From NCBI GenBank assembly GCA_002316295.1, contig DCDF01000240.1, forward strand, positions 1-62,492: a stretch of DNA of 62,492 bases, given 5' to 3'. Source of the stretch: Syntrophaceae bacterium UBA1062. Lineage in GTDB: Bacteria > Desulfobacterota > Desulfomonilia > UBA1062. Each line of letters starts with the position of its first letter. Position 1 is the stretch's first letter. The notes under the pieces are model-generated. The model was not told where the DNA came from, did not search any database, and saw only the letters and a program-made list of their open reading frames with translations. This document shows, piece after piece, positions 2,648-20,204 of this stretch. The position numbers and the translations under genes were made by a program.

Positions 2648-2679
2648 AAGAGATGCTCCTTGTTATGTAATGACGTTCG

Positions 2680-3945
2680 CTAGTAGGGTTTTTCGCCGAA
2701 CAGGATGTCGTGGCCGATCGCGAGCGTCAGGCTTTCGTTCGAGCCATCCTCGATCCGCGTGGAGGTGATGTCGCGGAAGAGCTTTTCGATCAGGTATTCC
2801 TTGGAAAGTCCGTTCCCGCCGAATATCTGAACCGCCTGCTGGGCAACGTCGAAGGCCATGTTGGAGCAGAACACCTTGGAGGTCATCGAATAGCCTGTCA
2901 TGGGAGGGAAGTTGTAGAGGTTGAAGCTCATGACGTTCCGGGAGAGCTGCCTTCCGGCCTCGATCTTTATGAACATGTCCGCGAGCTTGCGCTGGACGTC
3001 CTGGTGCTCGCACAGGGCCTTTCCTCCCTGAATACGCTCCCTCGAGTATCGAAGCGTCTCCTCGAATGCCGCGCGCGCCCCGCCCAGGCACATGATCGCC
3101 ATGTGGGCGTTCGCTGCACCGAGAACGAGGTCGGTCATGTTCTCATATGCCTCATGGTCGCAGACAACCCGGTCTTTCGAGACACGGACGTCATCGAAGT
3201 AGATCTCTCCCTGCGGGAGGTCCCGCTGGCCGATCTTGTCCAGCGGCTTGCCGCGCGATACGCCCTTCTCCTCAAGATCCGCGATGGCGATGCCGCCTCC
3301 CGCCAGCCCCATGGATCTGTCCGTGCCGAAAAACAGCAGAGCCATGGTGGCGGTGGTGCCGTTGGAGACCCAGGCGGCCTTCTGACCGTTCAAGATCCAG
3401 TCGTCCCCGTCTCTCTTCCCGACGAGCTGGTGGCTGATCTTGGGGTTGTGGAAGTGGGCCTGGAAGGGGGTGAGAATATCCGATCCATGCTCGGGCTCGG
3501 TGATGGCCCAGCAGCCAAGCATGCTGCAGTCCTTGTCGGCGACGTACGGTCTGAGGATACTGTCTTCGAGCTCGGGGAACTCGGGCAGAATCATGGCGGC
3601 GAAGAAGGTGGGGAATACGTCCACTCCGCACGCCACTGCCAGGCCGATGCTTCCGAATGCCATCTCCTCGAAGAAAATGTGCAGGCCAAGGGCATCCAGC
3701 CCTATACCGCCGTATTCCTCCGGTATGAAGATAGTATGATAGCCCAGCTCGTGCATCTGCCTCATGCACTGCCAGTACGGCGAATCTTTCTTGACGACAT
3801 CGTCCGGGCTCATCTTGTCGAGCTCTATGGATGCCGGCCGTATGACCTCGGCCACGAATTTTCGGACCGATTTCTTGAGATCTTCGTGATCCTCGGTATA
3901 TGCTATCTGATCTCCCTGCTGCAGATCTGTGTAATCGTATGCCAC
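2680..3945 (-). CDS. acyl-CoA dehydrogenase
   Basis: 421 aa, GTG start with GAAAGGAG RBS. ACAD-type motifs (CWAITEPEHGSD, QIFGGNGLSKEY). Confidence 0.9.
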   Translation of the reverse strand: MAYDYTDLQQGDQIAYTEDHEDLKKSVRKFVAEVIRPASIELDKMSPDDVVKKDSPYWQCMRQMHELGYHTIFIPEEYGGIGLDALGLHIFFEEMAFGSIGLAVACGVDVFPTFFAAMILPEFPELEDSILRPYVADKDCSMLGCWAITEPEHGSDILTPFQAHFHNPKISHQLVGKRDGDDWILNGQKAAWVSNGTTATMALLFFGTDRSMGLAGGGIAIADLEEKGVSRGKPLDKIGQRDLPQGEIYFDDVRVSKDRVVCDHEAYENMTDLVLGAANAHMAIMCLGGARAAFEETLRYSRERIQGGKALCEHQDVQRKLADMFIKIEAGRQLSRNVMSFNLYNFPPMTGYSMTSKVFCSNMAFDVAQQAVQIFGGNGLSKEYLIEKLFRDITSTRIEDGSNESLTLAIGHDILFGEKPY

Positions 3946-4095
3946 TGGCGTTCTCCTTTCATTACATGATCATTTCTTACCGAGGCGTTTCCTGTGAGCA
4001 TGCGCGGGTGAACATGTATTGCCCCGATACGATTTCCTGTAGTGAAAATGCCCATCTTTCCGCACTTCACACCCCGGCGCGCCGGGCGACCGTCT

Positions 4096-5703
4096 TCAGC
4101 GGTAATCTCCCGAGCCGAAGACATTTTTCGCATCCTTGGCGAACTCGCCTCTGAGAATGCGGTCCAGGTTCTTTTCAGAGGCGCTCTTGGGGATCTCGTC
4201 CACCACCTGGAGGTAGGAGGGAACGGAGTTGTTGTCGAGGCTTGCGGAAAGACGCCTGAATATGCTCCCAGGATCGATGGTCTTTCCCACCGCAGGGACG
4301 ACGGCGGCCACGATGTCGCTCTCCCCCGGAGCCCCGGATTCAGCCGGGATGCCGTACACGCAGACGTCCGACACCTCGTCCATATCGGCCAGCACTTTTT
4401 CTATGTACTCCGGCTGGATGAAATCACCCTGCCTCCTCAAGCCTCCGCCTTTGCGGAAATTGAAATAGAACCAGCCGTTCTCGTCCCGGTGGCACATATC
4501 TCCCGAACGCAGGACGCCTCCCCGAGTCTTCTCCCTCGAAGCCTTCTTCTTTCCGACGTACTCGACCTCGGCCTTCCCCTCTTTGGGTATGAACACGAGC
4601 TCGCCGATCTCGTGCGGGGCGCACTCGGTATCGTCCTCGCGCACCACCTTCATCTCCATGACCCCCTCCAGAGTCTTGCCGAAGGACCCCACCGGGCCCG
4701 CGCCCGGAGGATTGTGGGCGAAGCCGCCTTCCACTGCCGCGTACCATTCGTGGATCTTGACATCGAAGCGCTTTTCGAAGTCCTCCCAGATCGCGATCGG
4801 GGTGCCCGCGCTGATGACCTTTTTCACCGGATTGTCCGCATCGTTCGGCCTTCTGGGCTCGCTGTATATCCCCATCATCATGCCGCCGAGCAGGGAGAAC
4901 GTCGTGCAGCCGTGTTTTCTGCAGATGTCCCAGAGCCTGCTCTTGGTGAACTTGCGGCTGATGACGGACGGGACGCCGAGCATGAGCGAGGGAACGAGTG
5001 TGACGGCCTGGGCGTTGCCGTGGGTGAGGGACAGACCGGTATAGAGCTTGTCGGCATCCGTGTAGCCCCAGACAAACTGGGCGAGCAGCTTGAACATGGG
5101 CATCCGGTTCCCCTTGATGAGGACTCCCTTGGGGTCGCCCGTGGTCCCGGATGTATAGATGATTTCGAGCGGCGCCTTGACGTCGTCGTTGCGTCCGTCC
5201 ACCGGAGGCACTTCAGGTCCGCTCAGGATCTCGTTGAAATCCCGATATTTCTCACGCGGGGGCGCGGCAAACCCATCCTTGTGAACAACTCCGAGCACCT
5301 TCACACCGTTGAGGGCTGCAAGCGATTTTTCCACCTCTTCCGTAAATTCGCTGGTGAAAATGACTCCCTTGGACGAGGAGTCCTTTATCTGATAGCTCAG
5401 CTTGCCTCCCTTGGACCTGGGATCGATGGGCACGACCACAGCCCCCAGCATGGAGGCGGCTCCCATGCAGTAGAGGAATTCAGGATGGTTTCTCATGACG
5501 AGGCTGAACGTGTCGCCTCTGCCGATGCCCGAATCTTTCAAACGCCTCGCGACCTTGCAGGTGTTCACGAAAAGGTCTCGGTACGTCAGCGGCTCGTCCC
5601 CATACTCGCCGTTTTCAAAGGTGACGATGGTGGTGTCGGGCGTTTTTTCACATTTTACCATCAGTTCGTCAAAGAACATGCCCTCTATGATCTTTTGCGA
5701 CAT
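4096..5703 (-). CDS. AMP-dependent acyl-CoA synthetase/ligase
   Basis: 535 aa. AMP-binding signature IIYTSGTTGDPKGV and a C-terminal ligase domain. Confidence 0.9.
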   Translation of the reverse strand: MSQKIIEGMFFDELMVKCEKTPDTTIVTFENGEYGDEPLTYRDLFVNTCKVARRLKDSGIGRGDTFSLVMRNHPEFLYCMGAASMLGAVVVPIDPRSKGGKLSYQIKDSSSKGVIFTSEFTEEVEKSLAALNGVKVLGVVHKDGFAAPPREKYRDFNEILSGPEVPPVDGRNDDVKAPLEIIYTSGTTGDPKGVLIKGNRMPMFKLLAQFVWGYTDADKLYTGLSLTHGNAQAVTLVPSLMLGVPSVISRKFTKSRLWDICRKHGCTTFSLLGGMMMGIYSEPRRPNDADNPVKKVISAGTPIAIWEDFEKRFDVKIHEWYAAVEGGFAHNPPGAGPVGSFGKTLEGVMEMKVVREDDTECAPHEIGELVFIPKEGKAEVEYVGKKKASREKTRGGVLRSGDMCHRDENGWFYFNFRKGGGLRRQGDFIQPEYIEKVLADMDEVSDVCVYGIPAESGAPGESDIVAAVVPAVGKTIDPGSIFRRLSASLDNNSVPSYLQVVDEIPKSASEKNLDRILRGEFAKDAKNVFGSGDYR

Positions 5704-5756
5704 ACAACCCCCTCAAAGAGATGTTGATCATTCACGAAAAAACGCGGTGTGCGGGG

Positions 5757-6140
5757 CTACAGCCCGTGCTTCGCCATGTACTGCGGGTAGAACTCGTAGG
5801 CGGGCTTCACCACGGGCAGGAGCTTCATGACCTTGGCGATATTGCCCTTGGAAACGATCTTCCTCTTGGCCAGTGCGACCGGCAGGCTGATATCCTTTTT
5901 CCAGTAGGCGTGGCAGGTGTCTGCCGAGAGCCTCATGGTGACATCGGCTTTTGCGCTCTTCTCCCCGAACTCGATCCCGTCGGGGCTCACCCAGATCACG
6001 GCCGCGGGGTCCGAGATCTCGAATTTGATGGTGAGATCCGCTTTTTTCAGCGCGCCGCTGAATGCATCGTTGTCATACAGGAACTTCCAGAACCCTCCCA
6101 ACGTCTCATACAGATGGTCCGTATCCTTGAATACTGCCAT
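5757..6140 (-). CDS. SCP2 sterol/lipid-carrier domain protein
   Basis: 127 aa. Its size and pattern (TIKFEISDP...VIWVSPDG...KADVTMRLSADT...GNIAKVMKL) are typical of stand-alone SCP2 domains. It is the first gene behind the sigma-54 promoter. Confidence 0.7.
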   Translation of the reverse strand: MAVFKDTDHLYETLGGFWKFLYDNDAFSGALKKADLTIKFEISDPAAVIWVSPDGIEFGEKSAKADVTMRLSADTCHAYWKKDISLPVALAKRKIVSKGNIAKVMKLLPVVKPAYEFYPQYMAKHGL

Positions 6141-7809: not shown

Positions 7810-9579
7810 TCAGCTCACCTTGGCGGGCAGGGAGATGATGAATGTGGTCCCCTTCCCCGGCTCGCTCTCGACCTCGATCCTGCCCTTGTGGTCCTGGATG
7901 ATCCAGAAAACGAGGCTGAGCCCGATGCCGGTCCCCTTTCCGGCGCTTTTTGTAGTGAAGAAGGGCTCAAATATCCTGGATATGTCCTCCGGGGGTATCC
8001 CGTGACCGTTATCGGATATGGTTACCTCGACCTGCCTGCCCATCCCGTACACCCCTGAACAGCAGACCCGGATATCTCCCTGGCCTTCCACAGCCTGCGC
8101 GCTGTTGAAGAGGATGTTCATGAACGCCTGCTGAAGGAGAACCGGGTCCCCCCGGATCAGGGGGCTTGCATGAAAATCGCGCGAGAGCCGGATCTTCTGA
8201 AAGAGGGAATGCTTGCTCACCAGCTGGATGCTGGCATCGAGGACGTCGTGGACATCCACCTCGACCAGGGTGTTCTTGTCCGGCTTTCTCGAGAAGGCGA
8301 GCAACCGAGAGATAATTTCCTGGCAGGTGTCGCCCGCATCCCGTATCATCTTGATGAGGGCATAGTTCCGGTCGTCCCGGGTCATCCTTCTCAGGAGCAC
8401 GTCAGCGATGTTCACCACTCCTACCAGAGGATTGTTCAGCTGATGGGCAAGAGCGCTCACGAGCTCTCCGATAAAGTTCATCTTCTGCGACTGGATGAGG
8501 TTTTTCCTCAGCCTCTCCCGTTCCTCGATGTCGACGCCCAGAAGCAGCGTTGCGGTTTCTTTCCCTGATTCAGAGTCCTTGATCTTCGTTGCATAAAGCT
8601 CGATCTGAAAGGTCGTCTTGTCGTAGCGGTAGATGTTCGTGGTGCCGAACCAGAGCGTTGGAGAGGCGGCGGCGTCATGAAGCTTGGGCAGATCTTCAGG
8701 GGGGAAGAATCGGTCCACCGGGGTATTGAACACCTGAGAGGGCGAAAAGCCCAGAAGGCGCTCCGCGGTTTTGTTGAAGCTCACCACACGCCTGCGGTTG
8801 TCGATGGAGATCACCATGTTGGGAGATGCGTCCAGCACCTGGGCAAGGAACGTCTGCGACTGTCTGAGCTTCTGTCCGGTCTTTTCGGCCTTGCGCTTCT
8901 CCCGGTAGAGCGCATCTTCGATCTCCACGAAAAGAACGGTCCAGTCGATCTCTTCGAGCCGGTATCCGAGGAACTTGATGATCATGTCCTTGCGGTAGAA
9001 CTGGGGATAGTAGTGATCGACGAAGACGGAAAAGCGCTTTTGCCTGCCCTCGAACAGAACGCTGTACATCTCCTGGACCCCCGGATGCTCGAACGCCCGT
9101 GGATACACATCCCGGATGGATCGGTTGAGGATCTCATCACGTTTTTTCCGGGAGTTCTCTTCCTGCTTGCGGTTGATGTACGCGATCCTGCCGGATTCAT
9201 CGATAAACATGATGCCGATGGGAGCCTCTTCGATCACGCTCAGAAGATGCTTGTTGTTCTCTCTGAGCATCCGCAGCTCCTCAGGTTCCTCGCATGACTT
9301 CCCTTCGGCAGGGGACGGGATGAAGAAAAAACTGACGAGCCTGCCCGCCGGCAGGACATGGATATCGTTCAGGAGGCCGCCCAGGGACACTCTCTCAAGA
9401 ACCGTCTCCCGATGTCCGTTTTCGAGGGATATTCTCCCCTCAAGTGCAGGGAAGTGGTCGAACAGGTGATCGTTCTCGCTGATGCAGCCGCGGGCGGAAA
9501 GCGCGGACGCTCTTTCGTTGGAAGATACGACCCTCCAGTCAGTCCCCGTAATGACGAGCCCCTTCATCATTTTCGCCAT
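7810..9579 (-). CDS. PAS-domain sensor histidine kinase (cytoplasmic)
   Basis: 589 aa. PAS repeats, H-box ALAHQLNNPL, HATPase N/G boxes (ILFNSAQA, DNGHGI, GKGTGIGLS). No obvious TM helices. Confidence 0.9.
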   Translation of the reverse strand: MAKMMKGLVITGTDWRVVSSNERASALSARGCISENDHLFDHFPALEGRISLENGHRETVLERVSLGGLLNDIHVLPAGRLVSFFFIPSPAEGKSCEEPEELRMLRENNKHLLSVIEEAPIGIMFIDESGRIAYINRKQEENSRKKRDEILNRSIRDVYPRAFEHPGVQEMYSVLFEGRQKRFSVFVDHYYPQFYRKDMIIKFLGYRLEEIDWTVLFVEIEDALYREKRKAEKTGQKLRQSQTFLAQVLDASPNMVISIDNRRRVVSFNKTAERLLGFSPSQVFNTPVDRFFPPEDLPKLHDAAASPTLWFGTTNIYRYDKTTFQIELYATKIKDSESGKETATLLLGVDIEERERLRKNLIQSQKMNFIGELVSALAHQLNNPLVGVVNIADVLLRRMTRDDRNYALIKMIRDAGDTCQEIISRLLAFSRKPDKNTLVEVDVHDVLDASIQLVSKHSLFQKIRLSRDFHASPLIRGDPVLLQQAFMNILFNSAQAVEGQGDIRVCCSGVYGMGRQVEVTISDNGHGIPPEDISRIFEPFFTTKSAGKGTGIGLSLVFWIIQDHKGRIEVESEPGKGTTFIISLPAKVS

Positions 9580-10597: not shown

Positions 10598-11482
10598 ATG
10601 AGTGGAAGCGAGAAGGCGAACCCCGATCTTCAGACAATCATCAGGCAATGGCTGAAGACAGGAAGCCCATCAGGGGCGGAGACTGAGCCTGGCAGCGGCG
10701 AACGTTCCTCCGAGCAAGGACAGAAAGCGCAGGCTGAACGGCTTTCGAAAGACGCCTACTTTTCCATGATGAGAACCTTCCAGGCGGTCTCATCGGCCAT
10801 GAGCGAGCCGCCGGTCCTCGACGCCCTCTTCCGCAGTGCGAACATTCTTCCGGATATCGTGTCCACCTTTGTCATCACAGGGTTGAAAGGATATTTCGCC
10901 CTCCATCAGCAGGTCATCGACAAGATGGGGAAAATTGGAAGCCATACAGACGCGTACAGCTTCGACAACATTGATCAGGAAGCCCTGCGCGTCTGGTCCG
11001 AGATTTACAAGAATGAGATCAGGCAGTACTTCAACGTGCCTCAGCTGGGCCTGAGCAGATTTTACCAGGAAAGAGTCAACCAGGCTCTCGACAAGTTCAA
11101 TATCTTCAGCTCTGCTCTGGCCGAATTTCTTCAGCTGCTCTCACTGCCTTTTGAAAAATCCTTTCGCGTTCTGCAGGAAAAGATCGAAGATCTCACCAGA
11201 ACCGGGAGCCTCCCGGAAGATTCCCGTGGGTATTATCAGATGTGGGTGAAAATCCTCGAAGGTCATTTCATGACCCTGTTCCAGTCGCCCGAGTACAACA
11301 AGTCTCTCGGCGAGACGATGACGGCGCTGGAGGACTACATCTCCGCCCGCAACAGGATTCTTCAGGACATGCTCCAGTCGATGCCTGTGCCGACGAGAAA
11401 GGAGATGGATGATCTTTATAAGGAAATATATCTCCTGAAAAAGAAGGTCCGCGATCTCGAAAAGGCGAACGGGAAGCAGTAG
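10598..11482 (+). CDS. phaE: class III PHA synthase subunit PhaE
   Basis: 294 aa. Conserved PhaE tail YQMWVKILEGHF...PEYNKSLGE...PVPTRKEMDDLYKEIYLLKKKVRDLEK. 16 nt upstream of phaC. Confidence 0.8.
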   Translation: MSGSEKANPDLQTIIRQWLKTGSPSGAETEPGSGERSSEQGQKAQAERLSKDAYFSMMRTFQAVSSAMSEPPVLDALFRSANILPDIVSTFVITGLKGYFALHQQVIDKMGKIGSHTDAYSFDNIDQEALRVWSEIYKNEIRQYFNVPQLGLSRFYQERVNQALDKFNIFSSALAEFLQLLSLPFEKSFRVLQEKIEDLTRTGSLPEDSRGYYQMWVKILEGHFMTLFQSPEYNKSLGETMTALEDYISARNRILQDMLQSMPVPTRKEMDDLYKEIYLLKKKVRDLEKANGKQ

Positions 11483-11498
11483 CAACAAAGGAGAAGCC

Positions 11499-12764
11499 AT
11501 GAACAAGCCGAAAATACCTGTGGATATCATTCTGAAACATCTTGCCGAGCAGGCGGAGGTGAGCCGGGAGCGGGTGCAGAAGGCGACCGATGTCCTGCTT
11601 GGCAACCTCGATACCGATATCGCAGCCACCCCGTACGAGGTGGTGTATGAGGAAGACCGTGTCAAACTCAAACACTATGCACGGTCTCCGAAGGCGGAAG
11701 ACGCCATGCAGACCCCTCTTCTGGTGGTCTACGCGCTCATCAACCGCGAGACTATGCTCGATCTCCAGCCGGAACGAAGCGTCGTGAAAAGCTTACTGGC
11801 AGACGGGGTCAATCTCTACATGGTGGACTGGGGATACCCCACCTATAAGGACAAGTTCCTCACCATAGACGATCATGTCAACGGCTATATGGACAATATC
11901 GTCGATTTCATCCTGAAGCGGGAAAAGGTCGAAAAGATCAACCTCATGGGAATCTGCATGGGGGGAACCTTCAGCGTCATGTATTCCGCCCTTCATCCCC
12001 ACAAGGTCAAAAACCTGGTGACCACGGTATGTCCTACGAACTTCGATACGAGGCAGGGGCTGCTGCACATCTGGATGAAGTGGATGGATGTGGACAAAAT
12101 GATCGACACCTTCGGCAACATGCCCGGGGACCTCATGAATTTCGGGTTTCTCCTGCTCAATCCGGCACGCCTCATGATAGACAAGTATATCGGATTCCTG
12201 GAAAATATGGACAACAAGGCCTTTGTCGAGAATTTCGTCAGGATGGAGAAATGGATTTTCGACAGCCCCGACGTGCCGGGTGAGACCTTCCGGCAGTTCA
12301 CCAAGGATCTCTACCAGAACAATCTCCTGATCGAGAACAGGCTTCACATCGGCGGCAGACATGTAGATCTCCGCAATATCACCATGCCGATGCTCAACAT
12401 ATACGCCCGGTACGACCATCTGGTGCCTCCGGAGGCGGCCGAAAAGATCACCAGTGTGGTAGGGAGCACCGACACCGAGAACGTGTGCCTCGAGACCGGA
12501 CATATCGGTATCTACGTCAGCTCCAAGACGCAGAAGGAGTTCGCTCCGAAAATCATCAGCTGGCTCAGGGAAAGAGAAGGCCGGCGTGAACCCGTGAACC
12601 AGGCCGGCCTGTACCGGAGAAAGTCCGTGCCGAAAAGGGCGCGTTCTTCCATAAGAAACTCATCTCTCAGCACCAAAAGAAAGAAGGAGTTGAGCCATGC
12701 CGGAAAGAAAAGACTTTTTTTCAACAATTTGCAAGGTGAGCAGGGCGTTCGGGACCACCCTTGA
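11499..12764 (+). CDS. phaC: class III PHA synthase catalytic subunit PhaC with basic C-terminal extension
   Basis: 421 aa. Lipase-box Cys GICMGG, Asp (ARYDHLVP), His (ETGHIGIY). The canonical end ...KIISWL is followed by 65 extra residues. Confidence 0.9.
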   Translation: MNKPKIPVDIILKHLAEQAEVSRERVQKATDVLLGNLDTDIAATPYEVVYEEDRVKLKHYARSPKAEDAMQTPLLVVYALINRETMLDLQPERSVVKSLLADGVNLYMVDWGYPTYKDKFLTIDDHVNGYMDNIVDFILKREKVEKINLMGICMGGTFSVMYSALHPHKVKNLVTTVCPTNFDTRQGLLHIWMKWMDVDKMIDTFGNMPGDLMNFGFLLLNPARLMIDKYIGFLENMDNKAFVENFVRMEKWIFDSPDVPGETFRQFTKDLYQNNLLIENRLHIGGRHVDLRNITMPMLNIYARYDHLVPPEAAEKITSVVGSTDTENVCLETGHIGIYVSSKTQKEFAPKIISWLREREGRREPVNQAGLYRRKSVPKRARSSIRNSSLSTKRKKELSHAGKKRLFFNNLQGEQGVRDHP

Positions 12765-13749
12765 GAAGGAGGACCTGCTGGACCTGATCGTCCAGAGCGC
12801 CATCGAAACCATGAATGGAAAGGCTGCAAGCCTTTTCATGCAGGATGAAGACCGGAAGAGCCCGTATTACTTCCCCATCGCGCAGAAAGGGCTCTCCAGC
12901 AACTATCTCCACATGGAGCCGAAAGAGGCGAAACGCGCCGCCGACGAGATTCTCAAGAAGGGATACATTGCCATACACGATGCAACCAAGGATACCCGGG
13001 TCCAGAACCACGCACTGAAAAAGGCCGAGGGAATAGCCTCCATTCTCGTCGTGCCGGTAATGGTCAGAAACACCGTGATCGGTGTTCTCGGACTGTACAC
13101 CGCAACACCCAGACGATTTACCGATGAGGAGATCGAGTTCCTCACCGCACTGGCCGAGCAGGGAGGAATGGCTATCGAGCATGCGAGGCTCGTGGAGCAG
13201 ATCCGCAGGAACACCGATCTCTTCCTCAACCTCTCGACGAATATCAACTCCAGCTTGGACATCAGAGACATCCTGGACATTCTCACCGTTGACGTTGCGA
13301 GGGCCTTCGGGGTAAAGGCCGTCTCCGTACGCCTCCTGGACAGGGAGAAGAAGATCCTTCAGCTGGTGAGCAGCTACGGTCTGAGCGAGAAATATCTCAA
13401 GAAGGGGCCGGTCTATGCGGAGAAGAGCATCGCCGAGGCACTCAAAGGAAATATCGTGGCGATCCGCGACGCCTCCACGGATGAGGGAGTGCAGTACAAG
13501 AACGAGAAAAAAGCGGAGGGGATCATGTCGATTCTCTGTGTGCCCATCAAGGCCATGAATGAGATTATCGGCGTGCTCAGGCTCTACAGCGGAGTCCCCC
13601 GGGTGTTTACCGAAGACGAGATCAAGCTGGCTACCGCCATAGCCAACCAGGGGGGTCTGGCGATTCATAATGCATCGCTGTATCTTATGCTCAAGGAGGA
13701 CATCAAGGATCTCAGGGATGATATCTGGAGCCACCGGTTGTGGTTCTGA
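12697..13749 (+). CDS. tandem GAF-domain protein (no output domain)
   Basis: 350 aa. Internal duplication: SILVVPVMVRNTVIGVLGLYTATPRRFTDEEIEFLTALAEQGGMAIEHARL versus SILCVPIKAMNEIIGVLRLYSGVPRVFTEDEIKLATAIANQGGLAIHNASL. AAGGAG RBS 7 nt upstream. Overlaps the phaC tail by 68 nt. Confidence 0.85.
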   Translation: MPERKDFFSTICKVSRAFGTTLEKEDLLDLIVQSAIETMNGKAASLFMQDEDRKSPYYFPIAQKGLSSNYLHMEPKEAKRAADEILKKGYIAIHDATKDTRVQNHALKKAEGIASILVVPVMVRNTVIGVLGLYTATPRRFTDEEIEFLTALAEQGGMAIEHARLVEQIRRNTDLFLNLSTNINSSLDIRDILDILTVDVARAFGVKAVSVRLLDREKKILQLVSSYGLSEKYLKKGPVYAEKSIAEALKGNIVAIRDASTDEGVQYKNEKKAEGIMSILCVPIKAMNEIIGVLRLYSGVPRVFTEDEIKLATAIANQGGLAIHNASLYLMLKEDIKDLRDDIWSHRLWF

Positions 13750-13849
13750 TGATTCCGGAATGCATTCTCTTCCCGCATGCGGCTTCTTCCTGTCCACCCG
13801 TTGCTCTTAAGGCCGGCGTGGACGGAAATTGTACAAAAGGAGTTTCCAT

Positions 13850-14278
13850 ATGCCAGGAAAAACCATATCCGAGATGAAGATTGGTGATTACGCGGAATTC
13901 GCCAAAACAATCGCCGAGGCCGATATCTATCTGTTTGCAGGTCTTACCGGAGATCTCAACCCGGCTCATGTCAACGAAGAATATGCCAGGGAAACCTTTT
14001 TCAAGACACGTATCGCCCACGGGATTCTCCAGGCCGGCTTCATTTCCGCAGCGATCGGGATGCAGCTGCCCGGCCCCGGAACCATCTACATCCGACAGGA
14101 GCTCAATTTCCTGGCTCCTGTCCGGATCGGTGATACCGTCACCGCCCGCGTGGAAGTCGCCGAGATAAACGCGGAGAAAAACCGTGTCGTGCTCAAGACC
14201 ACGTGCAGAAACCAGAACCAGGAGACGGTTCTGGACGGGCAAGCCCTGGTGAGCCCTCCCAAGTCGCCGAAAAAATAG
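13850..14278 (+). CDS. phaJ: (R)-specific enoyl-CoA hydratase, MaoC/hot-dog family
   Basis: Hydratase-2 motif LFAGLTGDLNPAHV. The ATG at 13850 with an AAAGGAG RBS is preferred over the TTG at 13829. Confidence 0.85.
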   Translation: MPGKTISEMKIGDYAEFAKTIAEADIYLFAGLTGDLNPAHVNEEYARETFFKTRIAHGILQAGFISAAIGMQLPGPGTIYIRQELNFLAPVRIGDTVTARVEVAEINAEKNRVVLKTTCRNQNQETVLDGQALVSPPKSPKK

Positions 14279-14384
14279 GCTTGGCGCACCCGCCCGCTAC
14301 ACTGCTGTCCGTCGGTCACCCATATGTGATGACAGAGATGCGCACCGCTGTTCAGCACACAAAGGGCGACATGCTCGAACCAGG

Positions 14385-14957
14385 CTATGACTTGCTTCTG
14401 GTCCGCGATCCCTTCTTGGTTGCCGCCTCCGCAGCCTTGTGCGTTTCTTCAGTGCCCGCGGTTTCCTGGAAGATCTTTGAAAAACTGATCATCATATCCT
14501 GAAACTGTTGCGTCTGCTTCTTCATCAGGTTCTGAAATGCACTGATGCCTTCTCCCTGCAGAGAGAGCCTCTCGTCAAGGACACTCCGGAGACGGCCGAT
14601 TTCTTCCTCCTGGCGCTGTGTCTTTTCCTTGAGCTCCTCGTAGTCCTTGAGCAGAGCCTGATATTCCGACTGAAGGGGGTAGTTCCAGGGGCAGCTCATA
14701 AGCGAGAGGAATCCACCCGTGAAAGATTTTTGAAAATCTTCTGCGGCCTTGATGGAGGCGCTGAAATATTCCGGGAGATCACGGAGGAAGAAATCCATGC
14801 CCCACCACTTGGCGTACATTTCGAAAAGATCCTGAAAACTTCCCAGGTCGCCTTTCATCATACGGGAAAAGTCTTCCATGAGCTTCTGGCCCCGCGCGGC
14901 GTTGAGGAACATGTTTCCCCAGAGCTCAAACGCCTGTGTCTGCGTCTGCATGATCAT
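14385..14957 (-). CDS. short PhaE-like coiled-coil partner of the second PHA synthase
   Basis: 190 aa. FEMYAKWWGMDFFLRDLPEYFSASIKAAEDF aligns by eye with PhaE YQMWVKILEGHFMTLFQSPEYNKSLGETMTALEDY and is followed by a coiled coil (EYQALLKDYEELKEKTQRQEEEIGRL). Overlaps or abuts the upstream gene stop. The alternative ATG at 14951 has better AGGAGG spacing. Confidence 0.5.
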   Translation of the reverse strand: MIMQTQTQAFELWGNMFLNAARGQKLMEDFSRMMKGDLGSFQDLFEMYAKWWGMDFFLRDLPEYFSASIKAAEDFQKSFTGGFLSLMSCPWNYPLQSEYQALLKDYEELKEKTQRQEEEIGRLRSVLDERLSLQGEGISAFQNLMKKQTQQFQDMMISFSKIFQETAGTEETHKAAEAATKKGSRTRSKS

Positions 14958-16531
14958 CCTCCTTTGTACGATGGATCGCTCTCCAGCTGGAAAAGAACCG
15001 GACCGCGGTAATTCTTCTCTCCGAACCGCTTGTCCAGTGCGAATTCAGATTTCGGATTGGACCAGGACGTGGCGATGGCAAGATGGCCCTTGGGGAATTC
15101 ACTCACTTCGACATCGATGAAGTCCCGGGGAGCAAGCGCCGTTTCCTTCTCCACCAAGTCATCCCTCTCACCGTAGCAGATGAGCCACTTCACTCCCTTC
15201 TGCGGCAGGCGGTGGAGATCCAGCTTCCTGCCGAAAAGGCGTACCGGCAGAACCCCTTCTGTGGTGATGGGGATGTTGTATGAACGGAAGCTCATCTTGG
15301 TGACCTCAAGAGGCAGGTCGGTCCGTTCATAGGAGAGCCAGTAGTTGATCGCCAGAGCGGTCTTGTTGAATCCATGCTTTGCCTTTCCGTCGGCTGAAAG
15401 CATGACCATGTCCCGATAGAAGCTGATGAGCGGAAACTCGTCGTCGATCGCCCTGAGCTTGTACACCCATCCCATCAGCTTCCCGTCGCCCACCCTGTTC
15501 CCGTTGGGCAAAGTCTTGGTGCCGTAGGCGAGATCGTTGAACCGCGGGGGGAGATTGTTCAGAAATGTGGCAAGCCCCGGGCTCCTGGTCCCGTCCATGG
15601 GGGAGACGCAGGTGATGAGCAAATCCACGAGATTGTCCAGCTCGCCCGAGAGAATCCCGCACAGAGAAGTAAATCCGCCCTGGCAGTATCCACACAGGGT
15701 TACCGGCTTTCCGTGCTCTTTTTTGACGATCTCGGAAAAGTAGGCGGTGTCTCGGACGTCGTCTTCGCCGGTCATGACCTGGAATGCGGGGGTCGTCCAG
15801 ATGTTCTTGGCGATCCGTATGTAGGTCGGTATCCCCCTGTTGGCGAAGGCGTGCACGAAACTCTTGTTGTCTCCGGGGAGAAAGGCGAGGATATTCGTGC
15901 CCAGCACAAACGGGGGGATAATGACGACCGGTTTGCCGTTTTTCCTGACCGATACGTCCGTACGGGAAGGAAGCACCTGGTAGAGCATGAACCTCTCGGT
16001 TTCCCCCGCTTTTCTGTAGCCTTCCTGATCGAAGTGAAATCCGTATTCGCTCCTGATGTTGCGGATGGCCTTGGGATACTCGTACACGACCTTTTCCATG
16101 AGGGCTTCGTGCTCGGAAAGCAGAGACTGAATGTCTTTGCCGTCCCTGGAAAAGACCGTATTGATCCACGCGTCTGTGATTTCTCCGTATCGAGGGAGGT
16201 AGTACTGACCGATAGTGGAGATGCTTGCTTTCAGGGCCCTCTGAGCAAGCTGCACATTCAGCAGGAGCAGCTTGGTGTAGTCCTGGATTGTCTGGGCGGG
16301 AGGGATTTCGAGGATTTTCTTTCTTTCGACAGCCTGGAAATAGCTCGATGAAATGACGAAGGCATCGATAAAGTCATGGAAGTAACGCAGCAGTCCGTTG
16401 AGGTAAACCTGCCCTTCCTTCCCTTGCGCCAGCGAGGCGAGCCACAGTTTCTCCACAGTATCGCTCAAACGCTCCAGGGGCTCCGTCTGAAACATCCGAT
16501 CGTACAGGTACTGGTTTTCGTCAGAAGCCAT
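14954..16531 (-). CDS. PHA synthase-like alpha/beta hydrolase with long N-terminal domain (PhaC2)
   Basis: Lipase-box Cys GYCQGG, Asp (YGERDDLV), His (FPKGHLAI), and PVVIIPPFVLGTNILAFLP resembling the PhaC N-domain. The ATG at 16531 follows AGGAGG+5 nt; the longest ORF starts at 16564. Confidence 0.8.
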   Translation of the reverse strand: MASDENQYLYDRMFQTEPLERLSDTVEKLWLASLAQGKEGQVYLNGLLRYFHDFIDAFVISSSYFQAVERKKILEIPPAQTIQDYTKLLLLNVQLAQRALKASISTIGQYYLPRYGEITDAWINTVFSRDGKDIQSLLSEHEALMEKVVYEYPKAIRNIRSEYGFHFDQEGYRKAGETERFMLYQVLPSRTDVSVRKNGKPVVIIPPFVLGTNILAFLPGDNKSFVHAFANRGIPTYIRIAKNIWTTPAFQVMTGEDDVRDTAYFSEIVKKEHGKPVTLCGYCQGGFTSLCGILSGELDNLVDLLITCVSPMDGTRSPGLATFLNNLPPRFNDLAYGTKTLPNGNRVGDGKLMGWVYKLRAIDDEFPLISFYRDMVMLSADGKAKHGFNKTALAINYWLSYERTDLPLEVTKMSFRSYNIPITTEGVLPVRLFGRKLDLHRLPQKGVKWLICYGERDDLVEKETALAPRDFIDVEVSEFPKGHLAIATSWSNPKSEFALDKRFGEKNYRGPVLFQLESDPSYKGG

Positions 16532-16564
16532 TGTCCCCTCCTGTGCGCGGCCGGGGCCGGTCAT

Positions 16565-16840
16565 TTATTTTTTCGATTTTTCCGCGGCGCTGAAATACTC
16601 GTCCACCTTTCGAAAATTCTCATCCACGGATTTCTTGAAATCATCTCTTCCCTTCTTGTAGGCGCCGATCCATTGATTCAGGACACTTTTGCCTTCTTCG
16701 GGGAGCCAGTTCGCCTGATCGAGGAAGGTCTTGGCCATCTTTTCCGTTTGCTCCTGAATCAACACCATTGCGTTGAAGCTGTTGTCGAAAGAGGCCTTCT
16801 GAAAATCAATCACCTGTCTTACCATCTGTTTCTGATCCAT
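16565..16840 (-). CDS. small phasin-like protein, paralog 1 (YKKGRDDFKK family)
   Basis: 91 aa, directly upstream of PhaC2. About half its residues are identical to the products of 17456..17836 and 17873..18151. Confidence 0.6.
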   Translation of the reverse strand: MDQKQMVRQVIDFQKASFDNSFNAMVLIQEQTEKMAKTFLDQANWLPEEGKSVLNQWIGAYKKGRDDFKKSVDENFRKVDEYFSAAEKSKK

Positions 16841-17214
16841 GCTGCTTCCTCCTTGGAATGGAATATCTCCCGCGGGGCATCTGTGTACCGCGCTTCACAG
16901 CCGGGACACAGCCGCCCCCGGGGCGTGAGCCGGATGGGGATTGGTCGGGATATCCATGAATCCGTCATCCGATGCATTCTTGAATAATACGATCCGTCTC
17001 GGTTCTTTCAAGATTCACCTGCTTTCAGCAGTTTTCCCGGCCGATATTCGAAGGCATGATTCGGCTGCTCGGTGATTGCGATCAACACCTCCGCAGGCGA
17101 TGCCTCTCCGATCCGCCCGTGCGGTATCACGATCCGGCTCCAGAGAGACGGCATGCCGGAGAGCCTGGGTAATTCTCCGATATTCCTTGACTTCAATCTC
17201 TTCCCTTGTCCCGA

Positions 17215-17380
17215 TCAGGTTATACTTCGAGTGAGCTTGCATGTCGTCGTCCTCTGTCGTCCCCGTACATCGGCGGCATGAAAACAGAGCGTCAAGCTCT
17301 TATTCGACCTCACTTCCTCCGGGATATCTGCAATTGCAAGAGCTTCAAGGCGATCCAGGAAAATATCAAAACAGTGATAT
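17215..17380 (-). pseudogene. possible decayed copy of the phasin-like family
   Basis: One reverse frame gives FDIFLDRLEALAIADIPEEVRSNKSLTL (compare FFLDRVPWMPEESKQLIL). A shifted frame gives MYGDDRGRR (compare MYKKGRDDLKR). No intact ORF or start codon. Confidence 0.25.
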
Positions 17381-17455
17381 TTTGGAGGATTTTCCGCGGC
17401 GCCGCCCGCCTGTGACCATTTTTCTTGAACGACCGGCAGACAGGCGGCTCTTCCC

Positions 17456-18495: not shown

Positions 18496-18966
18496 ATGGC
18501 TGACAGAGAAAAACTCAGGCTGAAAAAATACGGGAACCGGCGCCTGTATGATACGGCCCGGAGCACCTACGTCACGCTGAATCAGGTCGCGGATATCATC
18601 AAGCAGGGAACGGACGTGGAGGTCGTCGACGCGAAGACACAGGAAGATGTGACGGCATTTATTCTCACCCAGATCGTGCTGGAGCAGGCACGGAGAAAAA
18701 ACGCCCTTCTCCCCGTGGAGCTTCTCCATCTGATTATCCGCTATGGCGAAAACCTGCTGCAGGAATTTTTCCAGAAATATCTCGAGCAGACGATCAATGG
18801 GTATCTCCAGTTCAAGAGGTCCATGGACGAGCAGTTCAGCAAATGGATCGATATGCAGCTCAACTATTCGGATATGGCGCAGAAAACGTTTTCCGGACTG
18901 ACTCAATTGCAGAACATCTTCGGCCGGTCCCGGCAGACTCCGGGATCGAAAAACGACAAAGACTGA
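18496..18966 (+). CDS. phaR: PHA synthesis repressor PhaR
   Basis: 156 aa. N-terminal KKYGNRRLYDTARSTYVTLNQVADIIKQG matches the PHB/PHA accumulation regulator DNA-binding domain. Divergent from the phasin-like genes. Confidence 0.9.
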   Translation: MADREKLRLKKYGNRRLYDTARSTYVTLNQVADIIKQGTDVEVVDAKTQEDVTAFILTQIVLEQARRKNALLPVELLHLIIRYGENLLQEFFQKYLEQTINGYLQFKRSMDEQFSKWIDMQLNYSDMAQKTFSGLTQLQNIFGRSRQTPGSKNDKD

Positions 18967-19127: not shown

Positions 19128-20204
19128 TCAGCCGGCGGCCGCCAACCCTGTCAAATCGGAAGCGGCTATCCTGCCCTTTATCGAGTACGCGGCCTCTTCG
19201 ACAAAGGCAAGGGCGGCGGGCCATTCGTGCTGCAGCGCTCTTCTGCCCATGAACACCGAGATGTGACCGGCCAGAGGAATCACCGCCTTGAAAATCTGGT
19301 CCCTGGGCGTTGAAGCATACAATTCGAGATTATGCACCTGGGGTATGAGGGTGATGTCGTCCCGCTCGCCGGCGAGCAGAGCCAGAGGGCACGATATATT
19401 CTGAAGGTCTACGTATTCACAGAGAACCTCCAGCGTGCCCTTGATGAGCCGGTTCTGCATGAAGAGCTTCTCCACTGCCTCGAGGTACCACCGTCCGGAG
19501 ATATCCTGGGTATACTCGTACCAGCGGCTGAATGTTTTTGTCCTCTTCAGATAATTCTCGTCCCTCACGTGTATCCAGAGGTTCAGATAGTCCCGGACGA
19601 ACCGGTCGTAGGCGTTCATCATCTTCCACCCCATGAGCATGAGGTCGCCGGACATGTTCCCCCCGCCGCAGTTTACGAGATACTGATAATACATGAGAGG
19701 AAGTGTATTCACGATATCCTGTATCTTCCCACCTCCGGCCGTGAAATCGATCGGAGCCGCGGCCAGCATGAGGGCACGGACATCTCCGGGAAACAGGGCG
19801 GCATAAATCGTGGCGAGCCATCCGCCCTGGCACAGGCCCGCGAGAACAACGGGCGCGCCCGCCTTTTTCACGCAGAGCATGACCTGCTGCACCAGATCGT
19901 CGATGGTCTCTTCTCTCCTGCTGAGCGTGCTCGATTTCCATTCGATTACATACACCGGACGGGCCGTATGCTTGAGGCATGTCTGAACCAGGCTCTGGCC
20001 GGGGGCATAGTCTGCAATGCTCGAATGGTGGCCAGCCTGGGGAGGGACGATCAGGATCGGGTCTCCTGTGCGGTCCTCATCGAATCTCCTCAAGACAACC
20101 GCCTTATCTTCGAAGATTTTCCTGTTCGGCGATATGAACTCCGGTTTTCCACGCGATGATGCGGTCTGAAAGAACTTCATGAGATCTGCATAAGGCGTAT
20201 TCAT
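19128..20204 (-). CDS. Cys-Asp-His alpha/beta hydrolase, PhaC class III-like or Cys-type intracellular PHA depolymerase (PhaZ-like)
   Basis: 358 aa. GLCQGG box, LAGERDDIT, PLAGHISVFMGRR. PPQAGHH and GHxxxFxGRR recall PhaZ-type depolymerases (from memory only). AAGGAG RBS. Confidence 0.75.
   Translation of the reverse strand: MNTPYADLMKFFQTASSRGKPEFISPNRKIFEDKAVVLRRFDEDRTGDPILIVPPQAGHHSSIADYAPGQSLVQTCLKHTARPVYVIEWKSSTLSRREETIDDLVQQVMLCVKKAGAPVVLAGLCQGGWLATIYAALFPGDVRALMLAAAPIDFTAGGGKIQDIVNTLPLMYYQYLVNCGGGNMSGDLMLMGWKMMNAYDRFVRDYLNLWIHVRDENYLKRTKTFSRWYEYTQDISGRWYLEAVEKLFMQNRLIKGTLEVLCEYVDLQNISCPLALLAGERDDITLIPQVHNLELYASTPRDQIFKAVIPLAGHISVFMGRRALQHEWPAALAFVEEAAYSIKGRIAASDLTGLAAAG

What the first reader, a model, noticed from the sequence alone, without database searches (positions are those of the whole stretch)
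14385..16564. Long PhaC coupled to a truncated PhaE: a hybrid two-component synthase architecture
PhaC2 carries about 170 residues N-terminal to the hydrolase core, a length typical of class I enzymes. Its stop is nonetheless fused to the start of a 190-aa coiled-coil gene, either as an ATGA overlap at 14954-14957 or as a 2-nt gap to the ATG at 14951.

The middle of that partner (FEMYAKWWGMDFFLRDLPEYFSASIKAAEDF, then a heptad-rich EYQALLKDYEELKEKTQRQEEEIGRL) aligns by eye with the C-terminal half of the bona fide PhaE at 10598..11482. The partner lacks the roughly 100-residue N-terminal half of PhaE.

A phasin-like paralog sits at most 33 nt upstream, giving a three-gene unit: phasin-like, PhaC2, short PhaE. 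This combination does not fit the classical class I-IV scheme.
Basis: partly seen in the sequence, partly recalled or inferred. Interest (0 to 1): 0.6.

Follow-up and report, generated by a model that had tools for sequence, protein, structure and literature searches.

The report
Unnamed PHA synthase with PhaE-like partner
An expressed three-gene operon in an anaerobic-digester bacterium encodes a granule protein, a very divergent bioplastic (PHA) synthase-like enzyme that databases mislabel as a "metal transporter", and a small coiled-coil protein with a short stretch resembling the tail of the known synthase subunit PhaE; the pairing is common but not obligatory.

Summary
A 525/536-aa PhaC-like gene ends in an ATGA overlap with a 188/190-aa all-helical gene, and a 91-aa phasin-like gene lies 0-33 nt upstream. 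Metatranscriptome contigs cover the three genes as one unit.

PhaC2 belongs to a large Desulfobacterota family (at least 1,961 90%-identity clusters). It has no Pfam hit, and sources name it "metal transporter" or "hypothetical". The Cys-Asp-His triad is invariant. The AF2 model (pLDDT 90.6) best matches full-length class I PhaC, including an N-terminal helical domain. In two 99%-complete genomes it is the only PhaC-type gene, sitting beside phasins, PhaR, a thiolase and an SDR. It is therefore probably a real synthase.

The partner fails the PhaE and phasin models. Its own HMM nevertheless hits 84 of 118 PhaE sequences in one register (about 65 residues of the PhaE C-terminus) and none of 1,298 shuffled or reversed controls. 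It also has a unique N-terminal motif and a roughly 70-residue C-terminal extension.

The partner usually follows PhaC2, including in cultured Desulfococcus multivorans. It also occurs without PhaC2, and PhaC2 occurs without it. It is more likely a shared PhaE-tail-like granule or synthase accessory than an obligate subunit. This is a new variant of a known kind, and no function has been tested.

The parts
16984..17011 (-). Promoter-like site (TTGAAA-16 nt-TATTAT) upstream of the phasin-like gene. RNA contigs end at about 16956-16979.
   Evidence: One search gives a 10/12 match. In one search, RNA contigs stop at 16956/16966/16977 and depth is near zero (at most 1.4) across 16980-17300.
16565..16840 (-). 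91-aa phasin-like protein, first gene of the unit. It is one of three paralogs in the window.
   Evidence: ORF. One search finds it conserved directly upstream of PhaC2 in most related loci. It has the highest RNA contig depth. It has no Pfam or NCBIfam hit.
14954..16564 (-). PhaC2, a divergent PhaC-type Cys-Asp-His alpha/beta-hydrolase. The likely start is the ATG at 16531 (525 aa). It has an N-terminal three-helix domain (about residues 15-172) and a catalytic domain from about residue 183.
   Evidence: No Pfam hit and TIGR01836 at only 25 bits. C294, D468 and H494 are invariant in 32 homologs. AF2 pLDDT is 90.6. Foldseek's best matches are PhaC structures. The PDB profile search gives 5xav at 1e-9.
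14954..14957 (-). ATGA stop/start overlap between PhaC2 and the partner. The alternative start at 14951 follows a 6-nt-spaced AGGAGG.
   Evidence: Similar overlaps or gaps of 20 nt or less occur in the closer relatives.
14385..14957 (-). p190, a 188/190-aa all-helical coiled-coil protein. It has an N-terminal LE(F/L)WGN..LNAA(R/K)GQ motif, a PhaE-tail-like segment (about residues 45-115), a long helix at 94-178 containing QTxQFQ(D/E)LM, and a short basic tail.
   Evidence: AF2. PhaE similarity.
14328..14384 (-). 3' untranslated end of the transcription unit. RNA contigs from two independent studies end at 14328.
   Evidence: X24 record 4 covers 14328-15841 and X27 record 17 covers 14328-16454, both with 0 mismatches.
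11261..11482 (+). C-terminal segment of the bona fide PhaE (gene 10598-11482) that the p190 family profile recognises.
   Evidence: the only other hit in the organism's own genome, E=1.2e-4, model positions 42-124; p190 model 43-110 aligns to PhaE 223-290. PhaE itself scores 94.5 bits against PF09712.
11499..12764 (+). Canonical class III PhaC (comparator), co-resident with PhaE.
   Evidence: TIGR01836 at 442.8 bits, above the cut-off of 365.3.
18496..18966 (+). PhaR-type repressor, a constant neighbour of the phasin/PhaC2/p190 genes.
   Evidence: PF07879 at 91 bits and TIGR01848 at 106 bits. Present in nearly all related loci.

Best explanation
The stretch is the distal two-thirds of an expressed operon: phasin-like gene, then PhaC2, then p190.

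PhaC2 belongs to a large, unnamed family of PhaC-type enzymes found across the phylum that GTDB calls Desulfobacterota. It keeps the GxCxGG box and the Cys-Asp-His triad. It also carries its own N-terminal helical domain, as class I synthases do. It is most likely a working PHA synthase that runs beside the canonical class III PhaEC encoded 2 kb away (inferred; not assayed).

p190 is an elongated coiled-coil protein. Its central segment of about 65 residues is remotely homologous to the phasin-like C-terminal tail of PhaE. It most likely sits on the PHA granule or synthase surface as an accessory or scaffold, made together with PhaC2 through translational coupling.

The same protein family persists in genomes that have only PhaEC and in genomes that have only PhaC2. 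It is therefore better read as a shared PhaE-tail-like accessory of the PHA machinery than as a dedicated, obligatory second subunit of PhaC2.
For: Expression and unit. RNA contigs with 0 mismatches span the p190/PhaC2 junction in two studies, flanking depth is near zero (at most 1.4) across 16980-17300, and a promoter-like site lies at 17011-16984.

PhaC2 is PhaC-like:
- The triad is invariant.
- The best PDB sequence hits are PhaCs.
- 21 of 32 members touch TIGR01836 and none touches PhaZ.
- The AF2 model has pLDDT 90.6, and its best Foldseek hits are full-length Aeromonas caviae PhaC, then PhaC catalytic domains.
- The N-domain of class I enzymes is a helix-bundle dimerisation module (PMC12184317).

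PhaC2 can be the sole synthase. Genomes G154 and G244 (both 99% complete) carry PhaR-phasin-PhaC2-p190-SDR plus a thiolase. They have no hit to PhaE, TIGR01836 or TIGR01838.

p190 resembles the PhaE tail:
- hhalign score 38.1 against 0 of 300 shuffles.
- PhaE is the only second hit in the organism's own genome.
- Among 3,510 locus ORFs, only p190 and PhaE ORFs are hit.
- 84 of 118 PhaE sequences are hit in one register, against 0 of 1,298 controls.

p190 is not tied to PhaC2:
- Smithella-type loci have phasins followed by p190 with no PhaC2, and whole-genome searches confirm this.
- Seven genomes have PhaC2 without p190.

The adjacent pair also occurs in cultured Desulfococcus multivorans.
Against: - No biochemical or interaction data exist, and a complex could not be modelled here.
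- Tight coupling (ATGA or gaps of 20 nt or less) and adjacency in about 24 of about 29 loci that hold both genes would also fit a true heteromer.
- The reverse search (PhaE HMM against p190) is not significant (0.5 bits).
- PF09712 and PF05597 do not detect p190, so the shared segment could be a convergent amphipathic motif.
- PhaC2 scores far below every PhaC family cut-off (25 bits against 365).
- PhaC2 lacks the His that follows the catalytic Asp in the class III PhaC of this same window (YDHLV against RDDLV). Polymerase activity is therefore not assured.
- Some PhaC2-only or p190-only calls come from incomplete MAGs.
Confidence: 0.5

Rival explanations
1. True two-component synthase. PhaC2 and p190 form an obligatory heteromer in which p190 plays the role of PhaE or PhaR. 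This would define a further synthase class: a long PhaC with a short PhaE-tail-like subunit.
For: - ATGA coupling.
- PhaC2 followed by p190 in most loci, across Desulfomonilia, Syntrophales and Desulfococcus.
- 13 of 16 co-occurring genomes have them adjacent.
- PhaE-tail homology.
- In G154 and G244 the pair is the only synthase-like system.
- Haloarchaea already show a long PhaC with an indispensable 20-kDa PhaE (PMC2939530).
Against: - p190 is kept in genomes with no PhaC2.
- PhaC2 occurs without any p190, sometimes outside the PHA locus.
- The two genes sit at opposite ends of the cluster in four Desulfobacteraceae loci.
- PhaC2 already has the N-terminal helical domain that makes class I enzymes self-sufficient dimers (PMC12184317).
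Confidence: 0.27
2. PhaC2 is not a polymerase. It would be a Cys-type intracellular PHA depolymerase, thiolytic enzyme or transacylase, co-expressed with granule proteins, and p190 would be just another phasin.
For: - PhaC2 is far below all PhaC cut-offs.
- It lies in a phasin operon rather than with PhaE.
- The window already has a complete PhaEC.
- From general knowledge, Cys-nucleophile depolymerases of the PhaZa1 type exist.
Against: - No member hits the PhaZ model TIGR01849, whereas 21 of 32 hit class III PhaC.
- The nearest sequences and folds are synthases.
- G154 and G244 would then have phasins, PhaR, a thiolase and a reductase but no synthase at all.
Confidence: 0.13
3. The p190-PhaE resemblance is convergent: an amphipathic helix, a proline and a leucine zipper, as found in many granule proteins. 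On this reading p190 is an unrelated regulator or tether, for example a PhaM/PhaF-like protein that uses its basic tail.
For: - The similarity is short, one-directional in HMM searches, and falls in a coiled-coil region.
- Pfam hits for the family are generic coiled-coil families.
- p190 has a conserved basic C-terminal tail, and some PhaC2 homologs carry long Lys/Ala/Pro-rich tails.
Against: - Composition- and periodicity-preserving controls (reversed sequences, block shuffles) do not reproduce the score.
- Only PhaE ORFs are hit among 3,510 ORFs, which include many helical proteins and 74 phasin-like sequences.
- A few members also touch TIGR01834 and TIGR01837 weakly.
Confidence: 0.1

Closest known systems
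Class III PHA synthase PhaEC (Allochromatium vinosum type; the window's own copy at 10598-12764)
   Same: - A Cys-Asp-His PhaC catalytic core with a GxCxGG box.
- A small non-catalytic helical protein encoded next to it.
- p190 shares about 65 residues with the PhaE C-terminal tail.
- The catalytic domain's nearest NCBIfam model is TIGR01836.
   Different: - PhaC2 is about 170 residues longer at the N-terminus and scores 25 bits against a cut-off of 365.
- The gene order is C then partner, not E then C.
- p190 lacks the first ~220 residues of PhaE, fails PF09712 and TIGR01834, and adds its own N-terminal motif and C-terminal helix.
- The pairing is not obligatory.
Haloarchaeal subtype of class III (Haloferax mediterranei PhaC 54.8 kDa with PhaE about 20 kDa; PMC2939530)
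   Same: An enlarged PhaC combined with a roughly 20-kDa PhaE that lacks part of the bacterial PhaE, including the 'PhaE box'. Both genes are co-transcribed.
   Different: - There the extra PhaC sequence is C-terminal, whereas here it is N-terminal and helical.
- PhaE is indispensable there. The requirement for p190 is untested here, and comparative data argue against strict dependence.
Class I PHA synthase (Aeromonas caviae PhaC, PDB 9knj/9knk/9knl; PMC12184317)
   Same: A single long chain with an N-terminal helix-bundle domain in front of the alpha/beta catalytic domain. These are the best Foldseek matches to the PhaC2 model (E about 5e-14).
   Different: - No PF07167 or TIGR01838 match for the window protein.
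- 15-17% identity and TM about 0.43.
- Class I enzymes have no coupled small partner.
Class IV PHA synthase PhaRC (Bacillus/Priestia megaterium)
   Same: From general knowledge, a PhaC with a roughly 20-kDa coiled-coil partner of similar size to p190.
   Different: - Class IV PhaC is short (about 40 kDa).
- No profile for Bacillus PhaR was available in the libraries searched (10.1101/693432 notes that it has no Pfam domain), so relatedness could not be tested.
Phasins and PHA granule-associated proteins (PF05597, TIGR01837)
   Same: Small amphipathic helical proteins encoded in PHA loci under PhaR control. Four of 32 p190 members touch TIGR01837 weakly. The PhaE tail that p190 resembles itself touches PF05597.
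   Different: - p190 does not reach any phasin model.
- It is not detectably related to the 91-aa phasin-like family beside it (hhalign probability 6%).

Membership tests
PhaE (PF09712 / TIGR01834), tested for p190 | Score above the family's curated cut-off | tested here: not met
   There was no PF09712 or TIGR01834 hit for the window protein at E<=1. None of 32 members hit PF09712. Two of 32 touched TIGR01834 at best E 0.0096. PF09712 scanned over the whole genome finds only the true PhaE.
PhaE (PF09712 / TIGR01834), tested for p190 | Detectable homology to PhaE sequence | tested here: met
   Only for about 65 residues (p190 47-111 to PhaE 228-294). hhalign gave score 38.1, probability 64%, with 0 of 300 shuffles reaching it. 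The p190 HMM scored 24.5 bits against the window's PhaE. It hit 84 of 118 PhaE sequences at E<1e-3, against 0 of 1,298 shuffled or reversed controls. The reverse HMM direction is not significant.
PhaE (PF09712 / TIGR01834), tested for p190 | Encoded next to, and always co-occurring with, its PhaC | tested here: inconclusive
   The genes are adjacent in most loci. However, among 401 genomes 16 have both, 7 have PhaC2 only and 5 have p190 only.
PhaE (PF09712 / TIGR01834), tested for p190 | Required for PhaC activity; forms a complex with PhaC | not testable with these tools
   Needs co-expression, pull-down or complex modelling.
PHA synthase PhaC (any class), tested for PhaC2 | Lipase-box-like GxCxGG with a Cys nucleophile, and a conserved Cys-Asp-His triad | tested here: met
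   The box reads GYCQGG. C294, D468 and H494 are invariant across 32 diverse homologs, and they align with the triad of the class III PhaC in BLASTP.
PHA synthase PhaC (any class), tested for PhaC2 | Score above the cut-off of a curated PhaC model (TIGR01836, 01838 or 01839; PF07167) | tested here: not met
   TIGR01836 scored 25 bits against a cut-off of 365.3. There was no Pfam family at E<=1.
PHA synthase PhaC (any class), tested for PhaC2 | PhaC fold (alpha/beta core with a CAP subdomain) | tested here: met
   AF2 gave pLDDT 90.6 and pTM 0.86. The top 15 Foldseek hits are all PhaC structures.
PHA synthase PhaC (any class), tested for PhaC2 | Polymerises (R)-3-hydroxyacyl-CoA | not testable with these tools
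   The evidence is only indirect. PhaC2 is the sole PhaC-type gene in G154 and G244, next to phasins, PhaR, a thiolase and an SDR.
Class I PhaC, tested for PhaC2 | N-terminal helical (dimerisation) domain on the same chain | tested here: inconclusive
   A confident three-helix N-domain is predicted. Full-length class I PhaC is the best structural match, but TM is only about 0.43. There is no PF07167 hit. Dimerisation was not tested.
Intracellular PHA depolymerase PhaZ (TIGR01849), tested for PhaC2 | Match to the PhaZ model | tested here: not met
   There was no hit for the window protein or for any of the 32 homologs.
Phasin (PF05597 / TIGR01837), tested for p190 | Match to a phasin model | tested here: not met
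   There was no PF05597 hit. Four of 32 members touched TIGR01837 at best E 0.0029, far below the cut-off.
Class IV PhaR (Bacillus), tested for p190 | Sequence homology to Bacillus PhaR | not testable with these tools

The most novel reading that the evidence does not exclude
PhaC2 together with the p190 family may define an undescribed fifth architecture of PHA synthase. It would combine a class-I-like long PhaC with a translationally coupled, PhaE-tail-derived coiled-coil subunit or activator. It is widespread in sulfate-reducing and syntrophic Desulfobacterota, is the only synthase in some of them, and is currently hidden behind 'metal transporter' or 'hypothetical' annotations.
Probability: 0.27. 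Interest if true: 0.75.

Novelty: new variant of a known kind. Interest (0 to 1): 0.55.

Why it matters
PHA synthases are sorted into four classes, and that scheme drives genome mining and primer design for bioplastic producers. This enzyme family has at least 1,961 90%-identity clusters and no Pfam or NCBIfam family. Where sources name it, the name is mostly "metal transporter".

If PhaC2 is active, PHA capacity in anaerobic digesters, sediments and syntrophic consortia is being under-counted. A synthase with an unusual domain and partner arrangement would also become available for engineering.

The p190-PhaE link suggests that the PhaE tail is a portable granule- or synthase-binding module. 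That bears on the open question of what PhaE actually does. No PhaE structure was found in the PDB.

Cultured Desulfococcus multivorans carries the same gene pair, so the question can be tested directly.

Tried and rejected
- Pairwise BLASTP of p190 against PhaE was not significant (E=0.38). A first profile comparison with 15 close homologs gave only 0.8% probability. Only the deeper 42-sequence profile showed the signal.
- I suspected PhaC2-p190 fusions in loci L003 and L004. This was a bug in my ORF-extension script, and a stop codon is present in both.
- The long (640-670 aa) PhaC2 homologs are not p190 fusions either. Their extra C-termini are low-complexity Lys/Ala/Pro-rich tails.
- I tested whether PhaE was split, with its N-half fused to PhaC2 and its C-half becoming p190. 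The PhaC2 N-domain shows no similarity to PhaE or to p190 (hhalign probability 1.5% and 0.4%).
- p190 against the neighbouring 91-aa phasin-like family gave no relation (probability 6%).
- A 124-aa helical ORF after the tandem PhaC2 genes of genome G267 looked p190-like by eye. It is not matched by the p190 HMM (4 bits).
- The AF2 model of p190 alone is low confidence overall (pTM 0.29). I did not use it for fold search.
- Literature searches for this family in Smithella, Syntrophus and Desulfococcus, and for a described further synthase class, found nothing specific.
- G171 at first looked like a third genome with PhaC2 and p190 but no PhaEC. Its contig simply ends inside the GAF gene, so it does not count.
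Full report
**1. What is in the sequence**

On the minus strand the window carries three genes in a row:
- a 91-aa phasin-like ORF (16565-16840);
- a 536-aa ORF (14954-16564), called PhaC2 here;
- a 190-aa ORF (14385-14957), called p190 here.

The PhaC2/p190 junction reads AAAGGAGGATGATCATG. The PhaC2 stop TGA overlaps an ATG (the ATGA at 14954-14957). A second ATG at 14951 follows 2 nt after the stop and sits 6 nt behind AGGAGG. That is the better start, and it matches the public gene call of 188 aa (P0001).

At the other end, the phasin stop TAA abuts an ATG at 16564. An AGGAGG lies 6 nt before the ATG at 16531, which gives 525 aa, the length of the public call P0286.

The surrounding genes are:
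- PhaE (10598-11482; PF09712, 94.5 bits);
- a class III PhaC (11499-12764; TIGR01836, 443 bits);
- a tandem-GAF protein;
- a MaoC/PhaJ hydratase, convergent with p190;
- two more phasin-like paralogs;
- PhaR;
- a third PhaC/PhaZ-like hydrolase.

**2. The three genes are transcribed as one unit**

Public metatranscriptomes from activated sludge and wastewater contain this sequence. Assembled RNA contigs with zero mismatches run 14328-15841 (run X24) and 14328-16454 (run X27). Both cross the p190/PhaC2 junction.

Contigs stop at 16956-16979, and depth is near zero (at most 1.4) across 16980-17300. A sigma-70-like site (TTGAAA-16-TATTAT) lies at 17011-16984. Depth is highest over the phasin gene.

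Contigs carry no strand information and can contain DNA. The empty intergenic stretches argue for RNA. The unit therefore runs phasin, PhaC2, p190, from roughly 16977 to 14328.

**3. What PhaC2 is**

PhaC2 has no Pfam family at E<=1. Its only NCBIfam hit is class III PhaC at 25 bits, against a cut-off of 365. It is about 25% identical to the window's own class III PhaC across the catalytic domain, with Cys, Asp and His aligned.

An exhaustive HMMER search of 1.84 billion representative proteins found only 259 at E<=1e-3. The ordinary PhaC families are thus too distant to register. At finer clustering the family has at least 1,961 90%-identity clusters. Sources name them "hypothetical protein", "metal transporter" or "cation-efflux family protein", and in two listed cases a PHA synthase ("PhaC class III" and "poly(3-hydroxyalkanoate) synthetase"). 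None has a precomputed Pfam domain.

Evidence that the family is PhaC-like:
- Across 32 diverse members, C294 (in GYCQGG), D468 and H494 are invariant.
- The family profile's best solved relatives are PHA synthases (5xav at 1e-9, 5hz2 at 4e-8).
- 21 of 32 members touch TIGR01836 and none touches the PhaZ depolymerase model.
- The AF2 model is confident (pLDDT 90.6, pTM 0.86). It shows three long helices (27-86, 89-137, 145-172) before an alpha/beta core that starts at residue 183.
- Foldseek's best matches are the full-length class I PhaC of Aeromonas caviae (E about 5e-14, aligned over more than 500 columns but with TM only about 0.43), followed by PhaC catalytic domains.

In that class I enzyme the N-terminal helix bundles cover the CAP subdomain and mediate dimerisation (PMC12184317). 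It shows no sequence similarity to PhaE or to p190.

**4. Is PhaC2 a synthase?**

There is no assay, but comparative genomics helps. In 401 genomes sampled across the phylum, 23 carry PhaC2 and 42 carry PhaE.

Two 99%-complete genomes from different families (G154 and G244) have PhaC2 and p190. They have no hit to PhaE (neither the Pfam model nor my own PhaE profile), to TIGR01836 or to TIGR01838. Their loci read PhaR | phasin(s) - PhaC2 - p190 - SDR, with a thiolase a few kb away. That is a complete phaA/phaB/phaC-style set with PhaC2 as the only candidate polymerase.

A depolymerase-only reading would leave these genomes with granule proteins and no synthase. I put "active PHA synthase" at roughly two in three.

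**5. What p190 is**

The p190 family has no Pfam or NCBIfam assignment, only generic coiled-coil noise. AF2 predicts an all-helical protein with a long, confident helix at 94-178 but a low overall pTM of 0.29.

Conserved features across 42 sequences:
- an N-terminal motif, MD..(F/L)LE(F/L)WGN..LNAA(R/K)GQ;
- a central segment, (V)VPk(e/d)(d/e)y..L.keyE.LKek....E;
- a C-terminal QTxQFQ(E/D)LM;
- a short basic tail.

Tests of the relationship to PhaE:
- BLASTP was not significant, and a shallow profile comparison failed.
- With 42 p190 and 118 PhaE sequences, hhalign gave score 38.1 (probability 64%, P=6.6e-5). Column shuffles averaged 14.8 +/- 3.2 (maximum 37.8), 12-column block shuffles 20.6 +/- 3.8 (maximum 33.9), and the reversed alignment scored 20.5.
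- The p190 profile searched over the organism's whole genome finds one other place, the C-terminus of the true PhaE (E=1.2e-4).
- Over 3,510 ORFs from the related loci, it hits only p190 and PhaE ORFs.
- It hits 84 of 118 PhaE proteins at E<1e-3, always model 47-111 to PhaE 228-294. It hits 0 of 1,180 shuffled and 0 of 118 reversed PhaE sequences.
- The reverse direction (PhaE HMM against p190) is not significant.

I conclude that a segment of about 65 residues is genuinely shared. This is the same part of PhaE that itself resembles phasins (PF05597, E=2.8e-5). p190 is not a truncated PhaE in any simple sense. It lacks about 220 N-terminal residues of PhaE, and it adds its own N-terminal motif and about 70 C-terminal residues. 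It is not related to the 91-aa phasin-like family beside it.

**6. Is p190 the partner of PhaC2?**

In favour:
- Coupling is tight in the window and its closer relatives.
- The order phasin(s) - PhaC2 - p190 holds in about 24 loci from Desulfomonilia, Syntrophales and others.
- It also holds in cultured Desulfococcus multivorans, where a 202-aa p190 member (168 bits) starts 39 nt after PhaC2.
- Of 16 genomes with both genes, 13 have them adjacent.

Against an obligate pair:
- Eight loci, including Smithella-type ones, have phasins followed directly by p190 with no PhaC2. Whole-genome searches confirm that PhaC2 is absent there.
- Seven genomes have PhaC2 without p190. Three are from the sister family of the same class, where PhaC2 sits outside any PHA cluster.
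- In four Desulfobacteraceae loci the two genes lie at opposite ends of the cluster.
- In the loci fetched with enough flanking sequence, p190 lies beside phasin-like genes (usually with PhaR) and a PhaC-type synthase, either PhaEC or PhaC2.

The most economical reading is that p190 is a PhaE-tail-like accessory of the granule/synthase machinery, made with PhaC2 in this lineage. It is not a dedicated subunit that PhaC2 cannot do without. The fact that PhaC2 already owns a class-I-type N-domain points the same way. I could not model the complex, so an actual PhaC2-p190 interaction remains open.

**7. Comparison with what is known**

The classical scheme has class I and II (long PhaC alone), class III (about 40-kDa PhaC with about 40-kDa PhaE) and class IV (about 40-kDa PhaC with about 20-kDa PhaR) (10.1101/693432; PMC2939530). 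PhaC2 with p190 has the chain length of class I and a partner the size of class IV PhaR. Its catalytic core is closest to class III, and its partner segment derives from the PhaE tail. It fails every curated family cut-off.

The nearest precedent for "long PhaC with short PhaE" is the haloarchaeal subtype, with a 54.8-kDa PhaC whose extra C-terminus is indispensable and a PhaE of about 20 kDa (PMC2939530). There the extension is C-terminal and PhaE is required.

I found no paper describing this family. Absence from the held library is not proof of absence.

**8. Verdict**

The stretch encodes an expressed, widely conserved and un-annotated PhaC-type enzyme, probably a synthase, plus a PhaE-tail-like coiled-coil accessory.

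I file it as a new variant of a known kind, with moderate interest. It would rise if PhaC2 proves active and p190 proves to be a required subunit. It would fall if PhaC2 turns out to be inactive or a hydrolase.

Noticed in passing
window 14954-16564 and its homologs (P0301, P0309, P0312, P0347, P0348 and others): Public sources name orthologs of PhaC2 'metal transporter' or 'cation-efflux family protein'. This includes the copy in cultured Desulfococcus multivorans. It looks like a propagated misannotation of a PhaC-type alpha/beta-hydrolase.
   Followed up: partly
homologs P0136, P0137, P0139, P0141; L036 and L037 PhaC2 genes: Many PhaC2 homologs carry 100-150 extra C-terminal residues of Lys/Ala/Pro/Thr-rich low-complexity sequence. 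From memory this resembles the histone-like tails of PhaF and PhaM. p190 ends in a short conserved basic tail (..KK.S.S.RK.). Whether the tails and p190 substitute for each other was not tested.
   Followed up: no
window 16652-16979 versus 14328-16650: RNA contig depth over the phasin-like gene is 2-6 times that over PhaC2 and p190 in three runs. This suggests attenuation, processing or a second 3' end after the phasin gene. Contig depth is only a rough measure.
   Followed up: no
window 16980-17455: The roughly 480-bp spacer between the first and second phasin-like genes has essentially no RNA coverage, while both flanks do. The three phasin paralogs are therefore not one transcript.
   Followed up: partly
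window 19128-20204: The third hydrolase (358 aa, GLCQGG) scores against class III PhaC (129 bits), the PhaZ depolymerase model (70 bits), DUF3141 and PHB_depo_C. It may be a Cys-type depolymerase. It is conserved next to PhaR in the closest relatives.
   Followed up: partly
L040 (G154) 8053-8847 and 13283-14500; L042 (G244) 8257-9051, 13308-14399 and 16172-17365: In the two genomes where PhaC2 is the only PhaC-type gene, p190 is followed directly by an SDR (possibly PhaB-like), and a thiolase lies beyond PhaR. G244 also has a patatin-like lipase between the two phasin genes.
   Followed up: partly
L034 (G267:C43) 1936-6033: Two PhaC2 paralogs sit in tandem outside any PHA cluster. They are followed 48 nt later by a 124-aa helical ORF that is not matched by the p190 or PhaE profiles.
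   Followed up: partly
window 12567-12764: The class III PhaC frame continues about 65 residues past the usual end, giving a strongly basic tail that overlaps the start of the tandem-GAF gene. tblastn matches to PhaC_III in relatives extend to residue 420-421, so the tail appears to be conserved in them.
   Followed up: no
p190 family, residues 5-25 (window 14879-14939): The N-terminal motif LE(F/L)WGN..LNAA(R/K)GQ is the most conserved part of the family. G12 is invariant in 32 sequences spanning 20-74% identity. It has no counterpart in PhaE or in phasins. Its role is unknown.
   Followed up: no
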